Shown: positions 1 through 6,333 of the stretch, one piece after another
Layout of the letters: each line of letters starts with the position of its first letter
Numbering within the stretch: the stretch's first letter is position 1
Program-made: the position numbers and the translations under genes
The notes under the pieces: model-generated
Databases searched by the model: none
What the model was told of the DNA's origin: nothing
Seen by the model: only the letters and a program-made list of their open reading frames with translations
From: a virus
Lineage: Duplodnaviria > Heunggongvirae > Uroviricota > Caudoviricetes
Length of the DNA: 7,198 bases
Virus record (IMG/VR): IMGVR_UViG_2698536458_000011
Reading direction: 5' to 3' (one strand)

Positions 1-58
1 TTGAACCAGCGACCTGGCGATTATGAGTCGCTCGCTCTCACCACTGAGCTAAAGGGCC
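1..58 (-). tRNA. Partial tRNA (5' 58 nt; the 3' end lies beyond the window start), identical to the matching part of the tRNA at 2422..2497; anticodon CAU
   Basis: Bases 1-58 are identical to 2440-2497. The reverse complement gives GGCCCTTTAGCTCAGTGGTGAGAGCGAGCGACTCATAATCGCCAGGTCGCTGGTTCAA, with acceptor, D-arm and CAT anticodon loop in canonical positions. Confidence 0.75.
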
Positions 59-67
59 GGGAGCCGC

Positions 68-96
68 ATAATAACGACGCGTAATTAATTCTTCAA
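68..96 (-). promoter_or_regulatory. Candidate sigma70 promoter for tRNA copy 1 (minus strand -35 TTGAAG, 17-bp spacer, -10 TATTAT)
   Basis: Plus-strand cttcaa at 91-96 and ataata at 68-73; the -10 ends 9 nt upstream of the tRNA 5' end. Same layout as the promoter at 2507..2535. Confidence 0.35.
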
Positions 97-98
97 TA

Positions 99-1157
99 TC
101 ATCCGTTCTGGCTGACTAAATCCTGTACTTCCCGAACCGTCTGCTCAAAACGTTCAGTCTCCAGCTCAACGCCAATTGCACGACGCCCGAGCGCCAGTGC
201 CGCTTTCACTGTCGAACCCAACCCCATGAAAAAATCTGCAATCAGGTCACCCGGACGACTGCTAGCGCTGATTATCTGCTGCAGCATTTCTGCCGGTTTT
301 TCGCACGGATGTTTCCCGGGATAGAACTGCACCGGTTTATGCGTCCACACATCGGTATACGGCACCTGCACCGTCACGCCAAAATACCGCCGCAGATGTT
401 TATATTCACTCAGCAGCTCCGCATACTGCCGGTTCAGTGAGGTATACGTATCCACCAGCTGGTGGTGGAGCTTTTCCAGTTCACCACGCCGATGCTTCTC
501 TTCTGCCACCCGGGCAAACAGCGCCTGTAATTTCAGATAATCGCTTTCATTCGGCAACTGCCACTGACCGGCACTGAACCAGTGCGACACCATGTTTTTC
601 TTTCCTGTGGCATCTGCAATCTGTTTTGCCGTTATCCCCAGGGCAGCTCGCGCATCACGAAAGTAAGAAATCAGCGGGGCCATCACATGCTGTTTCAGTG
701 CACTGCCCTTCGCCGCATACCCGGCATCTTTCGGACGATACGGCCCCTGATAATGTTCCGCGAACAGAATGCGCTCTGTGGCGGGGAAATACGCCCGCAG
801 GCTTTCCTTGTTGCATCCGTTCCAGCGTCCGGACGGCTTCGCCCAGATAATATGGTTCAGCACACTGAAGCGTTCACGCATCATGATTTCGATATCAGAT
901 GCCAGGCGATGACCACAGAACAGGTAAAGACTTCCGGCAGGTTTCAGCACCCGCCAGAACTGCGCCAGACACTGGTCCAGCCACTTCAGGTAATCATCGT
1001 CGCCCTTCCACTGGTTATCCCAGCCCTCAGGCTTCACTTTAAAGTACGGCGGGTCCGTGACTATCAGGTCAACAGAATTTTCGGGTAACGACCGGATAAA
1101 TTCCAGGCAGTCGGCGTTGATTAACTCACAACTGGATATTTTTACAGTATTAAGCAT
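99..1157 (-). CDS. DNA methyltransferase, beta-class amino-MTase (probable N6-adenine), 352 aa
   Basis: N-terminal motif IV VTDPPY (aa 33-38) and C-terminal motif I DFFMGLGST (aa ~300-310), the circularly permuted order typical of beta-class N6A/N4C MTases. ATG at 1157; stop abuts the downstream tRNA promoter. No restriction endonuclease gene is visible beside it. Confidence 0.85.
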   Translation of the reverse strand: MLNTVKISSCELINADCLEFIRSLPENSVDLIVTDPPYFKVKPEGWDNQWKGDDDYLKWLDQCLAQFWRVLKPAGSLYLFCGHRLASDIEIMMRERFSVLNHIIWAKPSGRWNGCNKESLRAYFPATERILFAEHYQGPYRPKDAGYAAKGSALKQHVMAPLISYFRDARAALGITAKQIADATGKKNMVSHWFSAGQWQLPNESDYLKLQALFARVAEEKHRRGELEKLHHQLVDTYTSLNRQYAELLSEYKHLRRYFGVTVQVPYTDVWTHKPVQFYPGKHPCEKPAEMLQQIISASSRPGDLIADFFMGLGSTVKAALALGRRAIGVELETERFEQTVREVQDLVSQNG

Positions 1158-1454
1158 GGATCATTAAGCCTGTCTCTGATAGGCTCATTCTGCTTTTGCN
1201 TTTTAACAAACTCCCCGCAAACCAGACAACAGTCAACCGCCTGAATTGTGAAGTATTTAAAAATTTCTCCCGCTAACTGATACCCGGCTAACAGTCTGGC
1301 GTTTTCTTTTTCAGCAACGGGAAAGCAACAACCACCACACCCGCCACCAGCACACCGTCAGCCAGCACTGACATTATCCGGCTGCTGCAATGCCATTCAC
1401 AAAAACAGTAAGCAATCACTTTTTACCGTAACAGGTGATAATCCAGATATGTAT

Positions 1455-1808
1455 CTACCCCAGATGAGTAATCCGAAGTTCATCCATACCACAGGTCCTG
1501 GCTATTCTGTTGTACTCCTGAACAAGAGCAAATAATTCTGAATTAGCAACCATGAACTCATCGCAAACCCTCTGTATAGCATCACTATTCAGAATAATAA
1601 CGTCTCTTCCCGAAAGACGATCAGGAGTACAGAACAAAACTGTCAAACGGCTGAAGGCCTTTGCTCGTGCTGCATTGACTATATCAATACGCTGCCTAAG
1701 GATGAAACACCCCGACGCCTCATCAATATTCACTCTACCCACACCATATGAATGATAAATATTTAATGCTGAAAAAACCATTAGACCGTATAACAAACAC
1801 TCAATCAA
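1455..1808 (-). CDS. Hypothetical protein, up to 117 aa (TTG at 1808; first ATG at 1781 gives 108 aa)
   Basis: Longest ORF in an AT-rich (~40% GC) segment on the same strand as all neighbours. No convincing Shine-Dalgarno for either start; an in-frame stop at 1812-1814 rules out extension into the N-run. No recognisable motif. Confidence 0.35.
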   Translation of the reverse strand: MIECLLYGLMVFSALNIYHSYGVGRVNIDEASGCFILRQRIDIVNAARAKAFSRLTVLFCTPDRLSGRDVIILNSDAIQRVCDEFMVANSELFALVQEYNRIARTCGMDELRITHLG

Positions 1809-1860
1809 TACTTAACAGAACTTTTATTTTTGACAAACATAAAATATTTTCAACAATATC

Positions 1861-2337
1861 NNNNNNNNNNNNNNNNNNNNNNNNNNNNNNNNNNNNNNNN
1901 NNNNNNNNNNNNNNNNNNNNNNNNNNNNNNNNNNNNNNNNNNNNNNNNNNNNNNNNNNNNNNNNNNNNNNNNNNNNNNNNNNNNNNNNNNNNNNNNNNNN
2001 NNNNNNNNNNNNNNNNNNNNNNNNNNNNNNNNNNNNNNNNNNNNNNNNNNNNNNNNNNNNNNNNNNNNNNNNNNNNNNNNNNNNNNNNNNNNNNNNNNNN
2101 NNNNNNNNNNNNNNNNNNNNNNNNNNNNNNNNNNNNNNNNNNNNNNNNNNNNNNNNNNNNNNNNNNNNNNNNNNNNNNNNNNNNNNNNNNNNNNNNNNNN
2201 NNNNNNNNNNNNNNNNNNNNNNNNNNNNNNNNNNNNNNNNNNNNNNNNNNNNNNNNNNNNNNNNNNNNNNNNNNNNNNNNNNNNNNNNNNNNNNNNNNNN
2301 NNNNNNNNNNNNNNNNNNNNNNNNNNNNNNNNNNNNN
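1861..2337. other. Run of 477 N (assembly gap or masked sequence)
   Basis: Uninterrupted n characters; nothing can be annotated here. Confidence 0.98.
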
Positions 2338-2421
2338 ACCGCCATCGGGGACCCGCCCCCGCACCAACAACCCTGTTATCGTGTCGTCTGCTCTTCCTGA
2401 TAAGCTAATGGCGGTTTGTGA

Positions 2422-2497
2422 TGGTGGCCCTTGCTGGATTTGAACCAGCGACCTGGCGATTATGAGTCGCTCGCTCTCACCACTGAGCTAAAGGGCC
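2422..2497 (-). tRNA. tRNA with anticodon CAU, 76 nt with encoded CCA; resembles E. coli tRNA-Ile2 (ileX/ileZ-like), tRNA-Met not excluded
   Basis: Reverse complement: GGCCCTTTAGCTCAGTGGTGAGAGCGAGCGACTCATAATCGCCAGGTCGCTGGTTCAAATCCAGCAAGGGCCACCA. 7-bp acceptor stem GGCCCTT/AAGGGCC, GTTCAAATCC T-arm, CAT at positions 34-36, 3' CCA. Differs at only a few positions from the ileX sequence as I recall it. Confidence 0.9.
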
Positions 2498-2506
2498 GGG
2501 AGCAGA

Positions 2507-2535
2507 ATAATAACGGTCCGTAATTAATTCCGCAA
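2507..2535 (-). promoter_or_regulatory. Candidate sigma70 promoter for the tRNA (minus strand -35 TTGCGG, 17-bp spacer, -10 TATTAT)
   Basis: Plus-strand ccgcaa at 2530-2535 and ataata at 2507-2512; the -10 ends 9 nt upstream of the tRNA 5' end. Confidence 0.4.
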
Positions 2536-2558
2536 TAAAAAACCCGCTCGGCGGCGGG
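2534..2558 (-). terminator. Rho-independent terminator downstream of the Q-like gene (tR'-like)
   Basis: Minus strand reads CCCGCCGCCGAGCGGG (GC-rich hairpin, stem CCCGC/GCGGG) followed by TTTTTTATT. It lies 35-40 bp after the Q stop and immediately upstream of the tRNA promoter. Confidence 0.55.
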
Positions 2559-2599
2559 TTGTAGAAACTCTTCTAACGTCAGGCATAAAACGCCCATAG

Positions 2600-3454
2600 T
2601 TATGACGAATTTACCACAGATTCCGGAAAAATCAACCTAGTTACCTTTTTTAACTGCCGCTCAGCCCATGCTTCTTCAATATCAAACCGGGTCACCAGCG
2701 CATCATAGAATTTCTTAACTGTTTTTTCCCATGACGCGCGTGTTATCTGGTTTGTCACCTCGCATATAGCATTAAATGCCTCCGTTGATGGTAGTCTTTC
2801 ATAGCCACGACCACCACAACGCTGGCAGTCTCTGATAACAGGCATACCACGTTTTACCGACTCTTCACGATGAATGGCGACACCACGCCCACGGCAATCC
2901 TTACAGGCGGTGGAAACCTCACCCTTTCCGCCACACTCCGGACAGGCAACTTTTACCACCTCCCTGACTTTTTTCCATTCTTCCCAGTAAGACGGATACA
3001 CACCTTTCGTACACTTTGCCCATACCGGCGGCTTACCATCCGGATACTGGATCTTGTTTGTAAAAACCTCGCTTTCAATAAATTTTTTTCCGTGACAGCA
3101 GGGGCACTGTTTTTTGCTCGCCGCGCTACGGGCATAATCTTCAAACGCATACGAAGCCATAATACGCATCACTGCCGGTTTTATTTCTGCCGGGAGTTTT
3201 CTTAACGCCGCCACGCGATCACACCGACTGAGTGCATATTCTGTCAGCAATTCTGTTGCCCGCTCTCTGTCATTCATACTAATGCCCATTTTCCCAAGGA
3301 ACGCAGAAACCCCCATCTCAGCCCGATTCTGTGTCATGCCCTGCGCGGCCATCACATCAGTGATACTCAGCGCATCTTTCGACGTTGAGGCCGATGCATC
3401 AGTCAGGCCGGGGGATTTTGGGGAGTAGTATTTCGGTAAATCTTCCAGTTTCAT
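2600..3454 (-). CDS. Q-like late antitermination protein (QuuQ/Q82-type family suspected), 284 aa, with four DnaJ-type CxxCxGxG repeats
   Basis: ATG at 3454 overlaps the rusA stop (ATGA). The position, directly after rusA and before a terminator plus tRNA, is the canonical Q slot. The N-terminus MKLEDLPKYYSPKSP resembles Q-like prophage antiterminators from recall. Repeats at aa 117-124, 171-178, 184-191, 210-217. Confidence 0.65.
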   Translation of the reverse strand: MKLEDLPKYYSPKSPGLTDASASTSKDALSITDVMAAQGMTQNRAEMGVSAFLGKMGISMNDRERATELLTEYALSRCDRVAALRKLPAEIKPAVMRIMASYAFEDYARSAASKKQCPCCHGKKFIESEVFTNKIQYPDGKPPVWAKCTKGVYPSYWEEWKKVREVVKVACPECGGKGEVSTACKDCRGRGVAIHREESVKRGMPVIRDCQRCGGRGYERLPSTEAFNAICEVTNQITRASWEKTVKKFYDALVTRFDIEEAWAERQLKKVTRLIFPESVVNSS

Positions 3455-3825
3455 TTTTTGACCTGCTCTTCATGCATTATGGGGTAAATCTTCACCCCCA
3501 GACGTCCACCAGATACTGGCTGACCACGAACGATATTGATTTCATCAAACTGCTCATCGTCCATTAACACTCCCGCATGTGTCAGTGCATCCAGTGGTGC
3601 TTTCAGGATATTGTCCAGGTCACGACGGCGCTTATCCGGTGGCTCTGCAATAATCTTTATCGCCAGTCTTCCGGACAGGCTTAATTTCAGTCGCTGCTGA
3701 CGGACAATAAGCGCCACATCCCGGCGATAACGCTCACCGGCTTTTGATACAAAATATGTGTTGTCACGACGTCGCCAGTAAGTATTCACCGTCGGCGGAT
3801 AAGGTAAAATAAACTCATGGCGCAT
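3451..3825 (-). CDS. rusA: Crossover junction endodeoxyribonuclease RusA (Holliday junction resolvase), 124 aa
   Basis: RusA family hallmarks: LPYPPTVNTYWRRR near the N-terminus, RRRDLDN, DAL..DDEQ, GGRL. AGGAGG Shine-Dalgarno 10 nt upstream of the ATG at 3825. Confidence 0.85.
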   Translation of the reverse strand: MRHEFILPYPPTVNTYWRRRDNTYFVSKAGERYRRDVALIVRQQRLKLSLSGRLAIKIIAEPPDKRRRDLDNILKAPLDALTHAGVLMDDEQFDEINIVRGQPVSGGRLGVKIYPIMHEEQVKK

Positions 3826-4082: not shown

Positions 4083-4206
4083 AAGAAACGCTCCATCTTA
4101 CTGCTGTCAGTTCGTTTATTACTGTATCTGCGCGGATTGCCGGGCTTCATGGGAGTGGAAAGCACCCGTGCACTTTCCTGGTCCACAGGCAGAAAATGTC
4201 CGTAGN

Positions 4207-4365
4207 GGACAGGCTTAATTTCAGCCGCTGCTGGCGAACAATAAGCGCCACTGCCCGGCGATAACGCTCCCCGGCTTTTGATACAAAATATGTGCTGCCA
4301 CGACGACGCCAGTAAGTGTTCACCGTCGGCGGGTAAGGTAAAACAAATTCTATGCGCTCGGTCAT
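4207..4365 (-). pseudogene. Truncated rusA remnant (N-terminal ~52 codons only)
   Basis: The ORF starts MTERIEFVLPYPPTVNTYWRRRGSTYFVSKAGERYRRAVALIVRQQRLKLSLS, then loses RusA similarity exactly at the ambiguous base n4206. DNA 4207-4353 is ~90% identical to 3673-3819. Its ATG directly follows the DUF968 gene stop (TAA-ATG). Confidence 0.75.
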
Positions 4366-5424
4366 TTATGCTTTCCACTTCAGAACACCCGAATTTCTCG
4401 CGTGCATTAAAAAACGAATCAGCAACAACAGCTGACTGCCGTGTTTCTCTTCAAAATCTTTTACTCCGGCATGTAGTTCGTTACGGCATTTACGGCATAA
4501 CGGAATAACAAACAAATCATCAGCCTTTGTTCCCATCCCTCCCAGTCCATGACCAATGATGTGATGCGGATCATCTGCCTGATTGCCACACGTCATGCAT
4601 TTCTGCGTTTTTACCCAGCGCGTGTATACAGGCATCTCTTCCCGTTGTGATTTCTGGCGCTGGAGATACTGAGCCGGTGACTCCGGATCAACGGCAATGC
4701 TGACCACCGTCTTTTCCTGTGGTGGGTTCTGTTGCTGGTGGACGTGAGGCAGTAACGCAATATTTTTTGTGCGCTGCTTCAGTATGCTGGTGGCTGTCTG
4801 CTCTCCCGGTATGATGTCGCTTTCACTGTACACAGAGCGAATTTTTTCCGCACGCAACCCCAGCGAACGACGTAATACCGCTTCCGGTAGCGCGTCCGCC
4901 ACCTGATTGCGGACCGCCCACCAGGATAATTCAGCCAGAGATAATTCACGCTCCTGCGTACCGCTTATTGCGTGACCGATGACGTCAATCATCCATGCTG
5001 ACAGGTTTTGATGAGCAAGTTGCTCGAGTGATTCGGATGTCTGGTCACGCAGCTGGTTGTCGCAGTGCCAGCACAACACCATTGCGCCGGTACCATAACG
5101 GTGAATGACGGTTTCGCTGTGATGATAATCGCCGTGTGGCCACTGGCAGGATTTAATATGGCGCAACAGCCAGTCAGACAATGCACCAGCACCACCAGCA
5201 GCACGAATCACCCGTGCGTTACTGAAAAACGGCAGCAATGTTTTGTCTTCCACCAGCGGCTGGCGAGCGGCAGGAACGACCCCGGACGGCAGATTACGCA
5301 TGCTTTTTGGTTCCGGCTCCACCAGTATTCTGCCGTTATGGAATGCTGACATTGATTCACGGCCTGGCTTAACGATAACCAGACCGAGTTCCGGTACCAG
5401 AACAGGTCGAAGTAATACCCGCAC
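4366..5424 (-). CDS. DUF968/YdfU-like prophage protein, 352 aa, with a C-terminal Cys/His-rich (HNH-like or zinc-ribbon) motif
   Basis: Long ORF with ATG at 5424 preceded by GGAGG (spacing only 2 nt, so the true start may differ). C-terminus CMTCGNQADDPHHIIGHGLGG...CRKCRNELH. Size and position upstream of rusA match YdfU-type proteins of E. coli prophages as I recall them. Confidence 0.75.
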   Translation of the reverse strand: MRVLLRPVLVPELGLVIVKPGRESMSAFHNGRILVEPEPKSMRNLPSGVVPAARQPLVEDKTLLPFFSNARVIRAAGGAGALSDWLLRHIKSCQWPHGDYHHSETVIHRYGTGAMVLCWHCDNQLRDQTSESLEQLAHQNLSAWMIDVIGHAISGTQERELSLAELSWWAVRNQVADALPEAVLRRSLGLRAEKIRSVYSESDIIPGEQTATSILKQRTKNIALLPHVHQQQNPPQEKTVVSIAVDPESPAQYLQRQKSQREEMPVYTRWVKTQKCMTCGNQADDPHHIIGHGLGGMGTKADDLFVIPLCRKCRNELHAGVKDFEEKHGSQLLLLIRFLMHARNSGVLKWKA

Positions 5425-5900: not shown

Positions 5901-5932
5901 GAAAATAAAAACAAAAACCCGCCGAAGCGGGT
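5901..5932 (-). terminator. Rho-independent terminator of the hok mRNA
   Basis: Minus strand reads ACCCGC-TTCG-GCGGGT (5-6 bp GC stem with a UUCG tetraloop) followed by TTTTTGTTTTTATTTT. Confidence 0.8.
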
Positions 5933-6001
5933 TAAGTGTGGGTGCATTGAGGATGCCTGACCCATCAGAGGTGGCGAGGGATTTCTCCCCCGCCTGGTCT
6001 C

Positions 6002-6157
6002 TTACTCCTCAGGTTCGTAAGCTGTGAAGACAGCGACCTCCGTCTGGCCGGTTCGAATTCGTACCTCGCAGAGGTCTTTCCTCGTTACCAGTGCCGTCAC
6101 TATGACGGTTAAACAGATGACGATCAGGGCGATTAACATCGCCTTTTGCTGCTTCAT
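6002..6157 (-). CDS. hok: Hok-family type I toxin (HokD/RelF-like), 51 aa
   Basis: Translation MKQQKAMLIALIVICLTVIVTALVTRKDLCEVRIRTGQTEVAVFTAYEPEE is a canonical Hok sequence (single transmembrane helix, conserved C-terminal Cys). AAGGAG Shine-Dalgarno 9 nt upstream of the ATG at 6157. Confidence 0.9.
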   Translation of the reverse strand: MKQQKAMLIALIVICLTVIVTALVTRKDLCEVRIRTGQTEVAVFTAYEPEE

Positions 6158-6214
6158 AGCCTGCTTCTCCTTGCCTTTCGGCACGTAAGAGGCTAACCTA
6201 GATTTGCCGTTCAT
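6002..6214 (-). CDS. mok: mok-like reading frame (in-frame N-terminally extended, 70 aa) that mediates hok translation
   Basis: ATG at 6214 opens a 70-codon frame that contains hok in frame, the same geometry as known Mok/Hok pairs (e.g. MokC/HokC). GAGG lies ~10 nt upstream. Confidence 0.55.
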   Translation of the reverse strand: MNGKSRLASYVPKGKEKQAMKQQKAMLIALIVICLTVIVTALVTRKDLCEVRIRTGQTEVAVFTAYEPEE

Positions 6215-6333
6215 AGATTGAGCCTCAGATTAATGTTAAGCGTCTTGCCGGACGCGTAATGTTAACTGGGGCTTTTCTCTATCTGCCTTTTGGTGTTCAT
6301 GCCTGAGACAGATAGCCTCAAGCACCCGCTGCA

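What the first reader, a model, noticed from the sequence alone, without database searches (positions are those of the whole stretch)
2534..2640. Candidate late promoter overlapping the Q stop codon, with a very short leader before the tR'-like terminator
On the minus strand, TTGATT (plus 2630-2635), a 16-bp spacer and TAAATT (plus 2608-2613) sit inside the last codons of Q. The predicted start is near 2600 and the hairpin plus T-tract terminator ends near 2534, giving a ~65-nt terminated leader. That is much shorter than the ~190-nt lambda 6S RNA. If real, Q-modified polymerase would read through into the tRNA and methyltransferase cargo.
Basis: inference. Interest (0 to 1): 0.4.

Follow-up and report, generated by a model that had tools for sequence, protein, structure and literature searches.

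The report
Lambda-type late promoter and terminator

Summary
On the minus strand TTGATT (2635-2630), a 16-nt spacer and TAAATT (2613-2608) are followed by a hairpin plus T-tract terminator (2560-2532).

The two hexamers alone are no better than chance. The wider context is decisive. TAAATT-N6-AACTATGGG copies the lambda PR' layout (TAAATT-N6-AACGATGGG), which places +1 at 2601 and a sigma-70-dependent pause element at +1..+6.

The upstream gene is a full-length lambda-Q homologue. The promoter-to-terminator block is better conserved than the adjoining Q coding sequence. The -35/-10 spacer changes in step with the Q clade, as expected of a Q-binding element.

- Short leaders of 55-75 nt are the norm in the Q-lambda family, including P22 and phi80. 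Lambda's 194 nt is the outlier.
- The overlap with the Q stop codon comes from a rare 8-bp deletion, found in 4 of 1235 complete E. coli genomes. It removes the ancestral stop and adds 11 residues to Q.

The tRNA downstream also has its own promoter, pT.

Verdict: a real, uncharacterised member of a well-known kind, of low interest. One side lead is a conserved 5' stem-loop in these leaders.

The parts
2600..3454 (-). Q antiterminator gene, 284 aa. It is a lambda-Q family protein with a roughly 60-aa insertion in the zinc 'arm' (residues 123-181).
   Evidence: ORF. Pfam PF03589 E=1.8e-53. phmmer to lambda Q structure 7ubm E=4e-41, covering both ends of the protein. Alignment A2.
2603..2635 (-). 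Eleven extra codons (LIFPESVVNSS) added to Q by an 8-bp deletion that removed the ancestral stop. They are read across the -35 hexamer, the spacer and the -10 hexamer. The new TAA stop at 2602-2600 overlaps the inferred +1.
   Evidence: All other homologues, including lambda Q and K-12 YdfT/QuuQ, end in ...VTR. The 8-bp gap is visible in alignment A1. The deleted allele is in 4 of 1235 complete E. coli genomes.
2630..2635 (-). -35 hexamer TTGATT of the late promoter (PR'-like).
   Evidence: Read directly. Invariant in 87 E. coli-clade loci.
2614..2629 (-). 16-nt spacer TTTCCGGAATCTGTGG, the candidate Q-binding element (QBE).
   Evidence: Nearly invariant, with one C/G site. It is kept in Enterobacter and HK225 relatives whose Q is only 51-60% identical. 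It is replaced by other motifs in the lambda/P22 clade and in the K-12 Qin/phi80 clade. The phi80 record annotates the Q site at the same place. Binding is inferred.
2608..2613 (-). -10 hexamer TAAATT, identical to lambda PR'.
   Evidence: Nearly invariant.
2593..2601 (-). Inferred transcription start (+1 = 2601) and sigma-70-dependent pause element AACTAT (+1..+6) followed by GGG (+7..+9).
   Evidence: Same 6-nt distance from the -10 hexamer as AACGATGGG in lambda. The motif is unique in the window, with 0.01 expected. AACGATGGG is present in nearly all of 276 Q-lambda-family loci. The start site itself is inferred.
2575..2601 (-). 5' stem-loop region of the leader. The inner hairpin spans +7..+21. 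In the family consensus an outer stem pairs AACG (+1..+4) with CGUU (+24..+27). The G-to-T change at +4 weakens that outer stem in this allele.
   Evidence: Fold. Pairing probability of +1..+4 is 0.82 for the consensus against 0.20 for this allele. The mean is 0.72 against 0.23 in controls over 30 representative leaders.
2532..2560 (-). Intrinsic terminator (tR'-like): 7-bp GC-rich stem, 6-nt loop and a U-tract. It ends a leader of about 67 nt.
   Evidence: Terminator scan. Fold. A terminator is present at a similar distance but with different sequences across clades.
2507..2535 (-). Separate tRNA promoter, pT-like: TTGCGG-17-TATTAT. Its -35 hexamer overlaps the end of the terminator T-tract.
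   Evidence: It aligns with the feature annotated 'pT; putative tRNA promoter' upstream of ileZ in phage 06-3462, and with the second tRNA copy in the window. A promoter between tR' and the tRNAs was mapped in Stx2a phage (PMC7547250).
2422..2497 (-). tRNA with CAU anticodon, of the ileZ type. RefSeq annotates it as tRNA-Ile. It is the first gene downstream of the terminator.
   Evidence: ARAGORN. Rfam tRNA 72.5 bits. RefSeq annotation in relatives.

Best explanation
The stretch 2532-2635 (minus strand) is the late-gene regulatory cassette of a Qin/HK225-like lambdoid prophage, built on the lambda plan.

Proposed mechanism:
1. A sigma-70 promoter (TTGATT-16-TAAATT) starts transcription at about 2601.
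2. Sigma-70 re-binds the -10-like AACTAT at +1..+6 on the non-template strand. With the following GGG, this pauses the polymerase at about +16 to +18.
3. Without Q, the polymerase resumes and stops at the hairpin plus U-tract at +42..+70, releasing an RNA of about 67 nt.
4. When the upstream Q protein is made, it binds the spacer element TTTCCGGAATCTGTGG and loads onto the paused polymerase.
5. The modified polymerase ignores this terminator and later ones. It transcribes the tRNA, the cargo genes (including the methyltransferase) and the lysis and late genes beyond the window.

Shown here: the elements, their spacing, their conservation and the identity of Q.
Inferred: the start site, the pause, Q binding and read-through.
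For: - Q is a full-length lambda-Q homologue.
- Lambda PR', read from NC_001416, is TTGACT-17-TAAATT-TGACTC-AACGATGGG. The window has TTGATT-16-TAAATT-CGTCAT-AACTATGGG. This composite motif is unique in the window, with 0.01 expected.
- In divergent E. coli relatives the -35-to-T-tract block is 82-89% identical. The adjoining Q coding sequence is 72-80% identical and the downstream DNA about 34%.
- In 87 loci the -35 hexamer, the spacer, the -10 hexamer, positions +1, +2, +5, +6 and the GGG are essentially invariant.
- The spacer motif tracks the Q clade across Escherichia, Enterobacter, Erwinia, Salmonella and Klebsiella phages.
- The phi80 genome record annotates the pR' -35 hexamer, a Q site, the -10 hexamer and a terminator in the same arrangement, with a leader of about 75 nt.
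- A terminator follows in 229 of 276 loci, with clade-specific sequences.
- Lysis genes lie downstream on the same strand in relatives.
- The mechanism of Q-lambda loading at QBE plus SDPE is established (PMC9388147).
Against: - No transcript data exist for this element.
- The hexamers score only 8/12 and are at chance level on their own.
- This allele differs from the family consensus in ways that could impair function. The pause element is AACTAT rather than AACGAT.
- Q also carries an 11-aa C-terminal extension. It starts right after the VTR motif, whose lambda equivalents (L202, T206) contact the RNA polymerase flap-tip helix.
- The prophage shows signs of decay or mosaicism, such as a rusA fragment at 4147-4365.
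Confidence: 0.85

Rival explanations
1. There is no promoter. The hexamers are chance matches and the hairpin is simply the terminator that ends the early (Q-containing) transcript.
For: The hexamers score 8/12 and were not called by the scan. Sites of that quality are as frequent in shuffled sequence.
Against: The lambda-identical -10, gap and pause-element layout has 0.01 expected by chance. The non-coding block is more conserved than the Q coding sequence. The spacer co-varies with the Q clade. The same arrangement is annotated in phi80. A plain terminator would not require conservation of the 60 nt before it.
Confidence: 0.04
2. The cassette is real in the family, but this copy is a decaying version. 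The promoter still makes the short RNA. Q-dependent read-through is weak or lost because of the 11-aa extension on Q and the G-to-T change in the pause element.
For: The extension allele is in only 4 of 1235 genomes. All homologues end at VTR. In lambda, C-terminal residues 195-207 refold and contact the polymerase flap tip and the Q torus, and T206 substitutions are defective. The G4T change removes the predicted outer stem of the 5' stem-loop. A rusA fragment and a mosaic gene order lie nearby.
Against: Positions +3 and +4 vary freely in close relatives. These are the least important positions of a -10-like element, by established knowledge of sigma-70 region 2 recognition. The Q ORF is otherwise intact. 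The allele is found in several independent genomes and in viral contigs.
Confidence: 0.25
3. The terminated RNA of about 67 nt is itself a functional product. It would be a stable, possibly Hfq-binding small RNA made constitutively in lysogens, like StxS of Stx phages, rather than only a by-product.
For: In Stx phages the PR'-tR' transcript is processed into the StxS Hfq-binding regulator. The authors propose that such leaders are a general source of small RNAs (PMC7547250). This leader has the typical shape: a 5' stem-loop, an A/U-rich linker and a terminator with a U-tail. Positions +10 to +33 are nearly invariant, beyond what the known Q mechanism requires. The block is present in 2394 of 5426 complete E. 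coli genomes.
Against: There is no sequence similarity to StxS apart from the terminator hairpin. There is no Rfam match. No expression or Hfq-binding data were found. Leader sequences differ completely between Q clades, which argues against one conserved target.
Confidence: 0.15

Closest known systems
Bacteriophage lambda PR'-qut-tR' cassette (6S RNA leader) with Q-lambda
   Same: Q is from the same protein family (PF03589). The -10 hexamer TAAATT is identical, with the same 6-nt gap to a -10-like pause element followed by GGG. A QBE position lies between the -35 and -10 hexamers. An intrinsic terminator precedes the late genes.
   Different: The leader is about 67 nt against 194 nt. The spacer is 16 nt against 17. 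The spacer (QBE) sequence is unrelated. Q has a roughly 60-aa insertion in the zinc arm. There is no TTGACT-like element between the -10 hexamer and +1. In this allele the promoter lies inside the Q reading frame.
Phage phi80 late promoter and Q (gp17); Guo and Roberts 2004, cited in PMC9388147
   Same: It has a long-arm Q of about 270 aa, 41% identical over the full length. The record annotates the pR' -35 hexamer, a Q site in the spacer, the -10 hexamer and a terminator, giving a leader of about 75 nt that starts AACGCTGGG.
   Different: The QBE class differs (TTCGCGGAAAAACTGG). The gap between the -10 hexamer and the pause element is 7 nt. The Q stop lies about 40 nt upstream of the -35 hexamer.
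Phage P22 late promoter with gene 23 (Q-lambda type), and HK225 / K-12 Qin (ydfT/quuQ) prophage cassettes
   Same: All have short leaders: P22 58 nt, K-12 Qin about 66 nt, HK225 about 57 nt. All start with AACGATGG. HK225 shares the window's spacer motif TTTCCCGAATCTGTG, with a Q 60% identical.
   Different: The -35 hexamers and the terminators have different sequences. None carries the Q extension through the promoter.
933W/Sp5-type Stx phage PR'-StxS-tR' cassette
   Same: The logic is the same: a constitutive late promoter, early termination, and read-through by Q into the same ileZ-type tRNA block preceded by pT. In the 933W-style annotation pR' also overlaps the 3' end of Q.
   Different: Q belongs to a different family (144 aa). 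The leader is 258 nt and is processed into the 74-nt StxS. There is no sequence similarity apart from a terminator hairpin.

Membership tests
Q-lambda-type late-gene regulatory cassette (Q gene, PR', QBE, SDPE, tR', late genes) | A Q protein of Pfam PF03589 is encoded immediately upstream on the same strand. | tested here: met
   PF03589 E=1.8e-53. phmmer to lambda Q 7ubm E=4e-41 over the N- and C-terminal parts.
Q-lambda-type late-gene regulatory cassette | A sigma-70 promoter lies directly after Q. | tested here: inconclusive
   The hexamers TTGATT-16-TAAATT are present and invariant in relatives. They score only 8/12, which is chance level on their own. Promoter activity cannot be tested with these tools.
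Q-lambda-type late-gene regulatory cassette | A sigma-dependent pause element, -10-like, lies at +1..+6 with the key A at +2 and T at +6, followed by G-rich sequence. | tested here: met
   AACTATGGG lies at 2601-2593, at the same distance from the -10 hexamer as in lambda. Positions +1, +2, +5, +6 and the GGG are invariant in 87 loci. Pausing itself was not tested.
Q-lambda-type late-gene regulatory cassette | A Q-binding element lies between the -35 and -10 hexamers and is specific to the cognate Q. | tested here: met
   This is comparative evidence only. The spacer motif is conserved within each Q clade and differs between clades. Physical binding is not testable here.
Q-lambda-type late-gene regulatory cassette | An intrinsic terminator lies between the pause site and the first late gene. 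| tested here: met
   Hairpin at 2560-2541 plus T-tract.
Q-lambda-type late-gene regulatory cassette | Lysis and late genes lie downstream on the same strand. | tested here: inconclusive
   The window ends before any lysis gene. In relatives with the same Q and leader, holin, lysozyme and spanin genes follow on the same strand.
Q-lambda-type late-gene regulatory cassette | Termination is relieved by Q, with NusA. | not testable with these tools
   This needs in vitro transcription or reporter assays.
StxS-type small RNA (PR'-tR' product of Stx phages) | Sequence homology to StxS and association with the 144-aa Q. | tested here: not met
   blastn-short finds only a 24-nt terminator-hairpin match. 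Q here is of the lambda type. PMC7547250 reports that StxS is absent from the 207-aa Q clade.
Rfam families (any described RNA) | A score above the gathering threshold. | tested here: not met
   The only hit is a sub-threshold Trp_leader match at 2534-2640, 25.7 bits against a threshold of 41, E=0.069. It is attributed to the terminator shape.

The most novel reading that the evidence does not exclude
The PR'-tR' leaders of the whole Q-lambda family, including lambda, P22 and this element, share a selected RNA architecture. The RNA copy of the pause element (AACGA, +1..+5) forms the closing stem of a 5'-terminal stem-loop with a (U)CGUU located 13-20 nt downstream. This is followed directly by the terminator. 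The result would be a compact two-hairpin RNA with a fully paired 5' end, made constitutively from a block present in about 44% of complete E. coli genomes. That 5' stem-loop would stabilise the leader and the late mRNA, or make the leader a trans-acting small RNA in lysogens. It would mean the early transcribed region is constrained at the RNA level as well as the DNA level.
Probability: 0.2. Interest if true: 0.5.

Novelty: new member of a known kind. Interest (0 to 1): 0.22.

Why it matters
The finding locates the unannotated late-gene switch of one of the commonest E. coli prophage families. The 103-nt block occurs in 2394 of 5426 complete genomes and no feature is annotated under it. This tells annotators where late and cargo transcription (tRNAs, methyltransferase, lysis genes) begins and how it is gated.

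The comparison also corrects a textbook bias. Lambda's 194-nt leader is atypical, and about 55-75 nt is the family norm.

Two testable side questions follow. Does a C-terminal extension on Q, at the interface with the polymerase flap tip, disable antitermination? Is the conserved 5' stem-loop of these leaders functional?

None of this changes the known mechanism.

Tried and rejected
- **Promoter scan:** it did not call the site. The hexamer-only statistics are at chance level, so the case rests on context and conservation.
- **Rfam with permissive thresholds:** the only hit is a sub-threshold Trp_leader match covering 2534-2640. I reject it as a terminator-shaped chance hit.
- **StxS homology:** none beyond a terminator hairpin.
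- **Small ORF starting at the ATG inside the pause element (+5):** in the window it gives the 45-aa ORF 2460-2597, which runs through the terminator and the tRNA. In relatives its length ranges from 2 codons upward and there is no ribosome-binding site (sequences). Rejected.
- **RNAalifold on +1..+32 of 35 leaders:** it gave no structure because MAFFT left the equal-length sequences ungapped, so the variable loops put the 3' arms out of register.
- **Own arm-anchoring rule:** it was confounded by G-U alternatives and I abandoned it. I used ensemble pairing probabilities with shuffled controls instead.
- **Guo and Roberts 2004 (PMC415771):** not held in the library, so details for phi80 come from the GenBank annotation only.
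- **pR' comparison paper for Stx phages (PMC6266700):** it does not cover this Q type.

Full report
**1. The observation**

Genes in the window run on the minus strand. In order they are:
- a DUF968 gene (4366-5424);
- a rusA fragment (4147-4365);
- an 85-aa ORF;
- rusA (3451-3825);
- a 284-aa ORF (2600-3454);
- a tRNA with a CAU anticodon (2497-2422);
- a masked run of N (1861-2337);
- two small ORFs;
- a DNA methyltransferase (99-1157);
- a second, truncated copy of the same tRNA (58-1).

On the minus strand I read TTGATT at 2635-2630, a 16-nt spacer, and TAAATT at 2613-2608. The TAA stop of the 284-aa ORF is at 2602-2600. The terminator scan finds AACCCGC-CGCCGA-GCGGGTT at 2560-2541 followed by TTTTATTGCG.

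**2. Is it more than chance?**

The hexamers alone are not.
- They score 8/12 and fall below the scan's threshold.
- Sites of that quality occur 27 times in the window, against 25.5 +/- 5.4 in shuffles.

The wider layout settles the question.
- Lambda PR', read from NC_001416, is TTGACT-17-TAAATT-TGACTC-AACGATGGG. Its T-tract ends 194 nt after the first A of AACGAT.
- The window has TTGATT-16-TAAATT-CGTCAT-AACTATGGG.
- The two share the same -10 hexamer, the same 6-nt gap, and the same -10-like element followed by GGG.
- The composite motif TAAATT-N6-AACNATGGG occurs once in the window, with 0.01 expected.

By analogy with lambda, +1 is at 2601, the sigma-dependent pause element (SDPE) is at 2601-2596, and the leader to the end of the U-tract is about 67 nt.

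**3. The upstream gene is Q**

- It matches Pfam PF03589, the Q-lambda family, at E=1.8e-53.
- It matches the lambda Q chain of PDB 7ubm at E=4e-41, through both its N-terminal 122 residues and its C-terminal 92 residues.
- Relative to lambda Q it carries about 60 extra residues in the zinc-ribbon arm (alignment A2).
- Phi80 Q is 41% identical over the full length, and HK225 Q is 60% identical.

**4. Conservation**

Across E. coli relatives, comparing the window with its more divergent relatives:

| Segment | Identity to the window |
|---|---|
| Last ~80 nt of Q coding sequence | 72-80% |
| -35 hexamer to T-tract | 82-89% |
| Downstream of the T-tract | ~34% |

Homology ends exactly at the T-tract. 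Downstream of it, relatives carry either the tRNA block or a 65-aa ORF plus methyltransferase.

In 87 E. coli-clade loci the following are essentially invariant: the -35 hexamer, the spacer (except one C/G site), the -10 hexamer, positions +1, +2, +5, +6, and the GGG. Variation is concentrated at -6..-2, +3, +4, +11, +34 and +38.

I then collected 276 Q-lambda-family loci from viral contigs, GTDB genomes and phage records. They include Escherichia, Enterobacter, Erwinia, Pectobacterium, Edwardsiella, Kosakonia and Mangrovibacter. AACGATGGG at a fixed distance from a -10-like hexamer is almost universal among them.

The -35/-10 spacer falls into classes that follow the Q clade:

| Q clade | Spacer motif |
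|---|---|
| Lambda / P22 | TTGAATAAAGTTGGG |
| This Q, HK225 and Enterobacter relatives | TTTCC(C/G)GAA(T/A)(C/T)TGTG(G/T) |
| K-12 Qin, SfV, phi80 types | TTC(A/G)(A/G)AAAA..TGG |

The second class holds even where Q is only 51-60% identical and the -35 hexamer has changed to TTTACT. This is the behaviour expected of a Q-binding element. The phi80 GenBank record annotates its Q site at that position, between an annotated pR' -35 and -10, with a terminator giving a leader of about 75 nt.

**5. The two "unusual" features**

*Leader length.* Of the 276 loci, 219 have the first terminator within 75 nt of +1. About 47 are lambda-like with the long leader, and a handful fall between 98 and 167 nt.
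- Phages whose Q is 99.5% identical to lambda Q carry a 58-nt leader.
- P22 carries the same 58-nt leader, as do HK97-like contigs.
- K-12 Qin (ydfT) has about 66 nt.

A short leader is therefore the family norm. Published work already notes short antitermination-regulated RNAs from phi80 and P22 late promoters (PMC7547250).

*Overlap with the Q stop codon.* All homologues, including lambda Q and K-12 YdfT, end in VTR. Most relatives read ...GGTAACTAGGTAACAAGGTTGATT, with the stop a few bases before the -35 hexamer. The window lacks 8 bp, one unit of an imperfect tandem repeat. Q therefore reads on for 11 codons (LIFPESVVNSS) through the -35 hexamer, the spacer and the -10 hexamer, to a TAA that overlaps +1.

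This allele is present in 4 of 1235 complete E. coli genomes that carry the junction, and in a few viral contigs. In lambda Q, residues 195-207 refold on loading, and L202 and T206 contact the RNA polymerase flap-tip helix and the Q torus (PMC9388147). The extension therefore sits at a functional interface. Whether it matters is unknown.

**6. What lies downstream**

The T-tract runs straight into TTGCGG-17-TATTAT (2535-2507). About 10 nt later comes the tRNA.

The same promoter-like unit precedes the second tRNA copy in the window. It also precedes ileZ in a 933W-type Stx phage record, where it is annotated "pT; putative tRNA promoter". A promoter between tR' and the tRNAs was mapped by dRNA-seq in the Sakai Stx2a phage (PMC7547250).

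The tRNA is therefore likely to be made independently of Q. Q-modified polymerase would add to its expression and would carry on into the cargo and lysis genes. In relatives these lie on the same strand.

**7. Mechanism and comparison**

The best explanation is the canonical Q-lambda mechanism. The steps are initiation, a sigma-70-dependent pause at the SDPE, Q binding at the QBE and loading with NusA, then read-through of tR' (established in PMC9388147).

Shown here: all the sequence elements, their spacing, their conservation and the identity of Q. Inferred: the start site, the pause, Q binding and read-through.

It is not an StxS homologue. StxS belongs to the 144-aa Q clade with a 258-nt leader, and blastn-short finds only a terminator hairpin in common. 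Rfam gives nothing above threshold.

**8. Side observation**

In most leaders the 5' end AACG(A) is complementary to (T)CGTT, which lies 13-20 nt downstream.
- Ensemble folding of 30 representative leaders gives a mean probability of 0.72 that +1..+4 are paired within the first 40 nt. Controls in which +7..+34 were shuffled give 0.23.
- Where the 5' arm differs in distant lineages, the partner differs too. Examples are AATGATGG/CTGTCATT in a Yokenella prophage, AAGAATG/CATTCTT in a viral contig with a lambda-like Q, and AACAA/TTGTT in Pectobacterium.
- In the close E. coli clade, changes at +3 and +4 are not compensated.
- The window's own AACTAT allele loses the outer stem, with a probability of 0.20 against 0.82 for the consensus.

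This is suggestive evidence of a conserved 5'-terminal stem-loop. The lineages are few and related, and I could not run a phylogeny-aware test.

**9. Verdict**

It is a new, unannotated member of a very well-known kind. The 103-nt block is present in 2394 of 5426 complete E. coli genomes with no annotated feature under it. Its apparent oddities are the family norm (the short leader) or a rare deletion allele (the stop-codon overlap). Interest is low. The 5' stem-loop and the Q extension are small, testable leads.

Noticed in passing
window 2575-2601 (minus); also lambda L008:788-810, P22 L335, and many loci L091-L320: The 5' end of Q-lambda-family late leaders (AACGA) is complementary to (T)CGTT 13-20 nt downstream. 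This predicts a 5'-terminal stem-loop. A few lineages show compensatory changes (L135, L162, L155). The pairing is lost in the window's AACTAT allele.
   Followed up: partly
window 2597-2599 (positions +3 and +4) and 2591 (+11); 87 E. coli-clade loci: The two middle bases of the pause element are multi-allelic (C/T/A and G/A/T) in an otherwise almost invariant 100-nt block. Yet CG is conserved at these positions in distant clades. This could reflect relaxed constraint, prophage decay or a mutational hotspot.
   Followed up: partly
window 2603-2638 (minus): An 8-bp deletion of one unit of an imperfect GGTAAC(T/A)AG tandem repeat removes the Q stop codon and adds 11 residues after the invariant VTR C-terminus. 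The allele is rare: 4 of 1235 complete E. coli genomes.
   Followed up: yes
window 2507-2535 and 68-96 (minus): Both tRNA copies are preceded by a conserved promoter-like unit TTG(C/A)(G/A)G-17-TATTAT. It equals the 'pT' tRNA promoter annotated in 933W-type Stx phages. At the first copy its -35 hexamer overlaps the end of the tR' T-tract, which is also the exact boundary between mosaic modules.
   Followed up: yes
window 1-58 and 1288-1860: There is a second, truncated copy of the ileZ-type tRNA after the methyltransferase. Before the methyltransferase lie a DUF3927-like ORF (1288-1419) and a 117-aa ORF with no Pfam match. In relatives the order is Q, 65-aa ORF, methyltransferase, tRNA-Ile, tRNA-Arg, DUF3927. 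The window therefore looks like a recombinant with a duplicated tRNA block.
   Followed up: partly
window 1861-2337: This is a 477-base run of N (masked). In the closest relative (TK3889) a tRNA-Arg lies about 100 nt downstream of the tRNA-Ile, so the masked stretch probably includes it. Single N bases also occur at 1200 and 4206.
   Followed up: partly
window 2909-3088 (Q residues 123-181): Q carries a roughly 60-aa insertion with extra CxxC/CxxCxGxG motifs in the zinc-ribbon arm, compared with lambda Q. The arm contacts the QBE and sigma region 4 in lambda. The long arm is shared with phi80, HK225 and K-12 QuuQ.
   Followed up: partly
window 6152-6327 (minus) and 6002-6214 (minus): A hok/sok-type toxin-antitoxin locus: the sok RNA scores 112 bits in Rfam, next to a HokD-like ORF.
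   Followed up: no
window 5912-5993 (minus): A sub-threshold Rfam match to isrK (25.7 bits against a threshold of 50) ends in a strong terminator at 5933-5916. IsrK is the Gifsy-1 prophage RNA linked to an antiterminator gene in Salmonella.
   Followed up: no
window 4147-4365 (minus): A truncated second copy of the rusA N-terminal region lies upstream of an 85-aa coiled-coil-like ORF and the intact rusA. This suggests a local duplication or recombination scar.
   Followed up: no
E. coli genome collection (query window 2534-2636): The 103-nt promoter-leader-terminator block is present in 2394 of 5426 complete E. coli genomes, at 1-4 copies each. No feature is annotated under it in RefSeq.
   Followed up: yes
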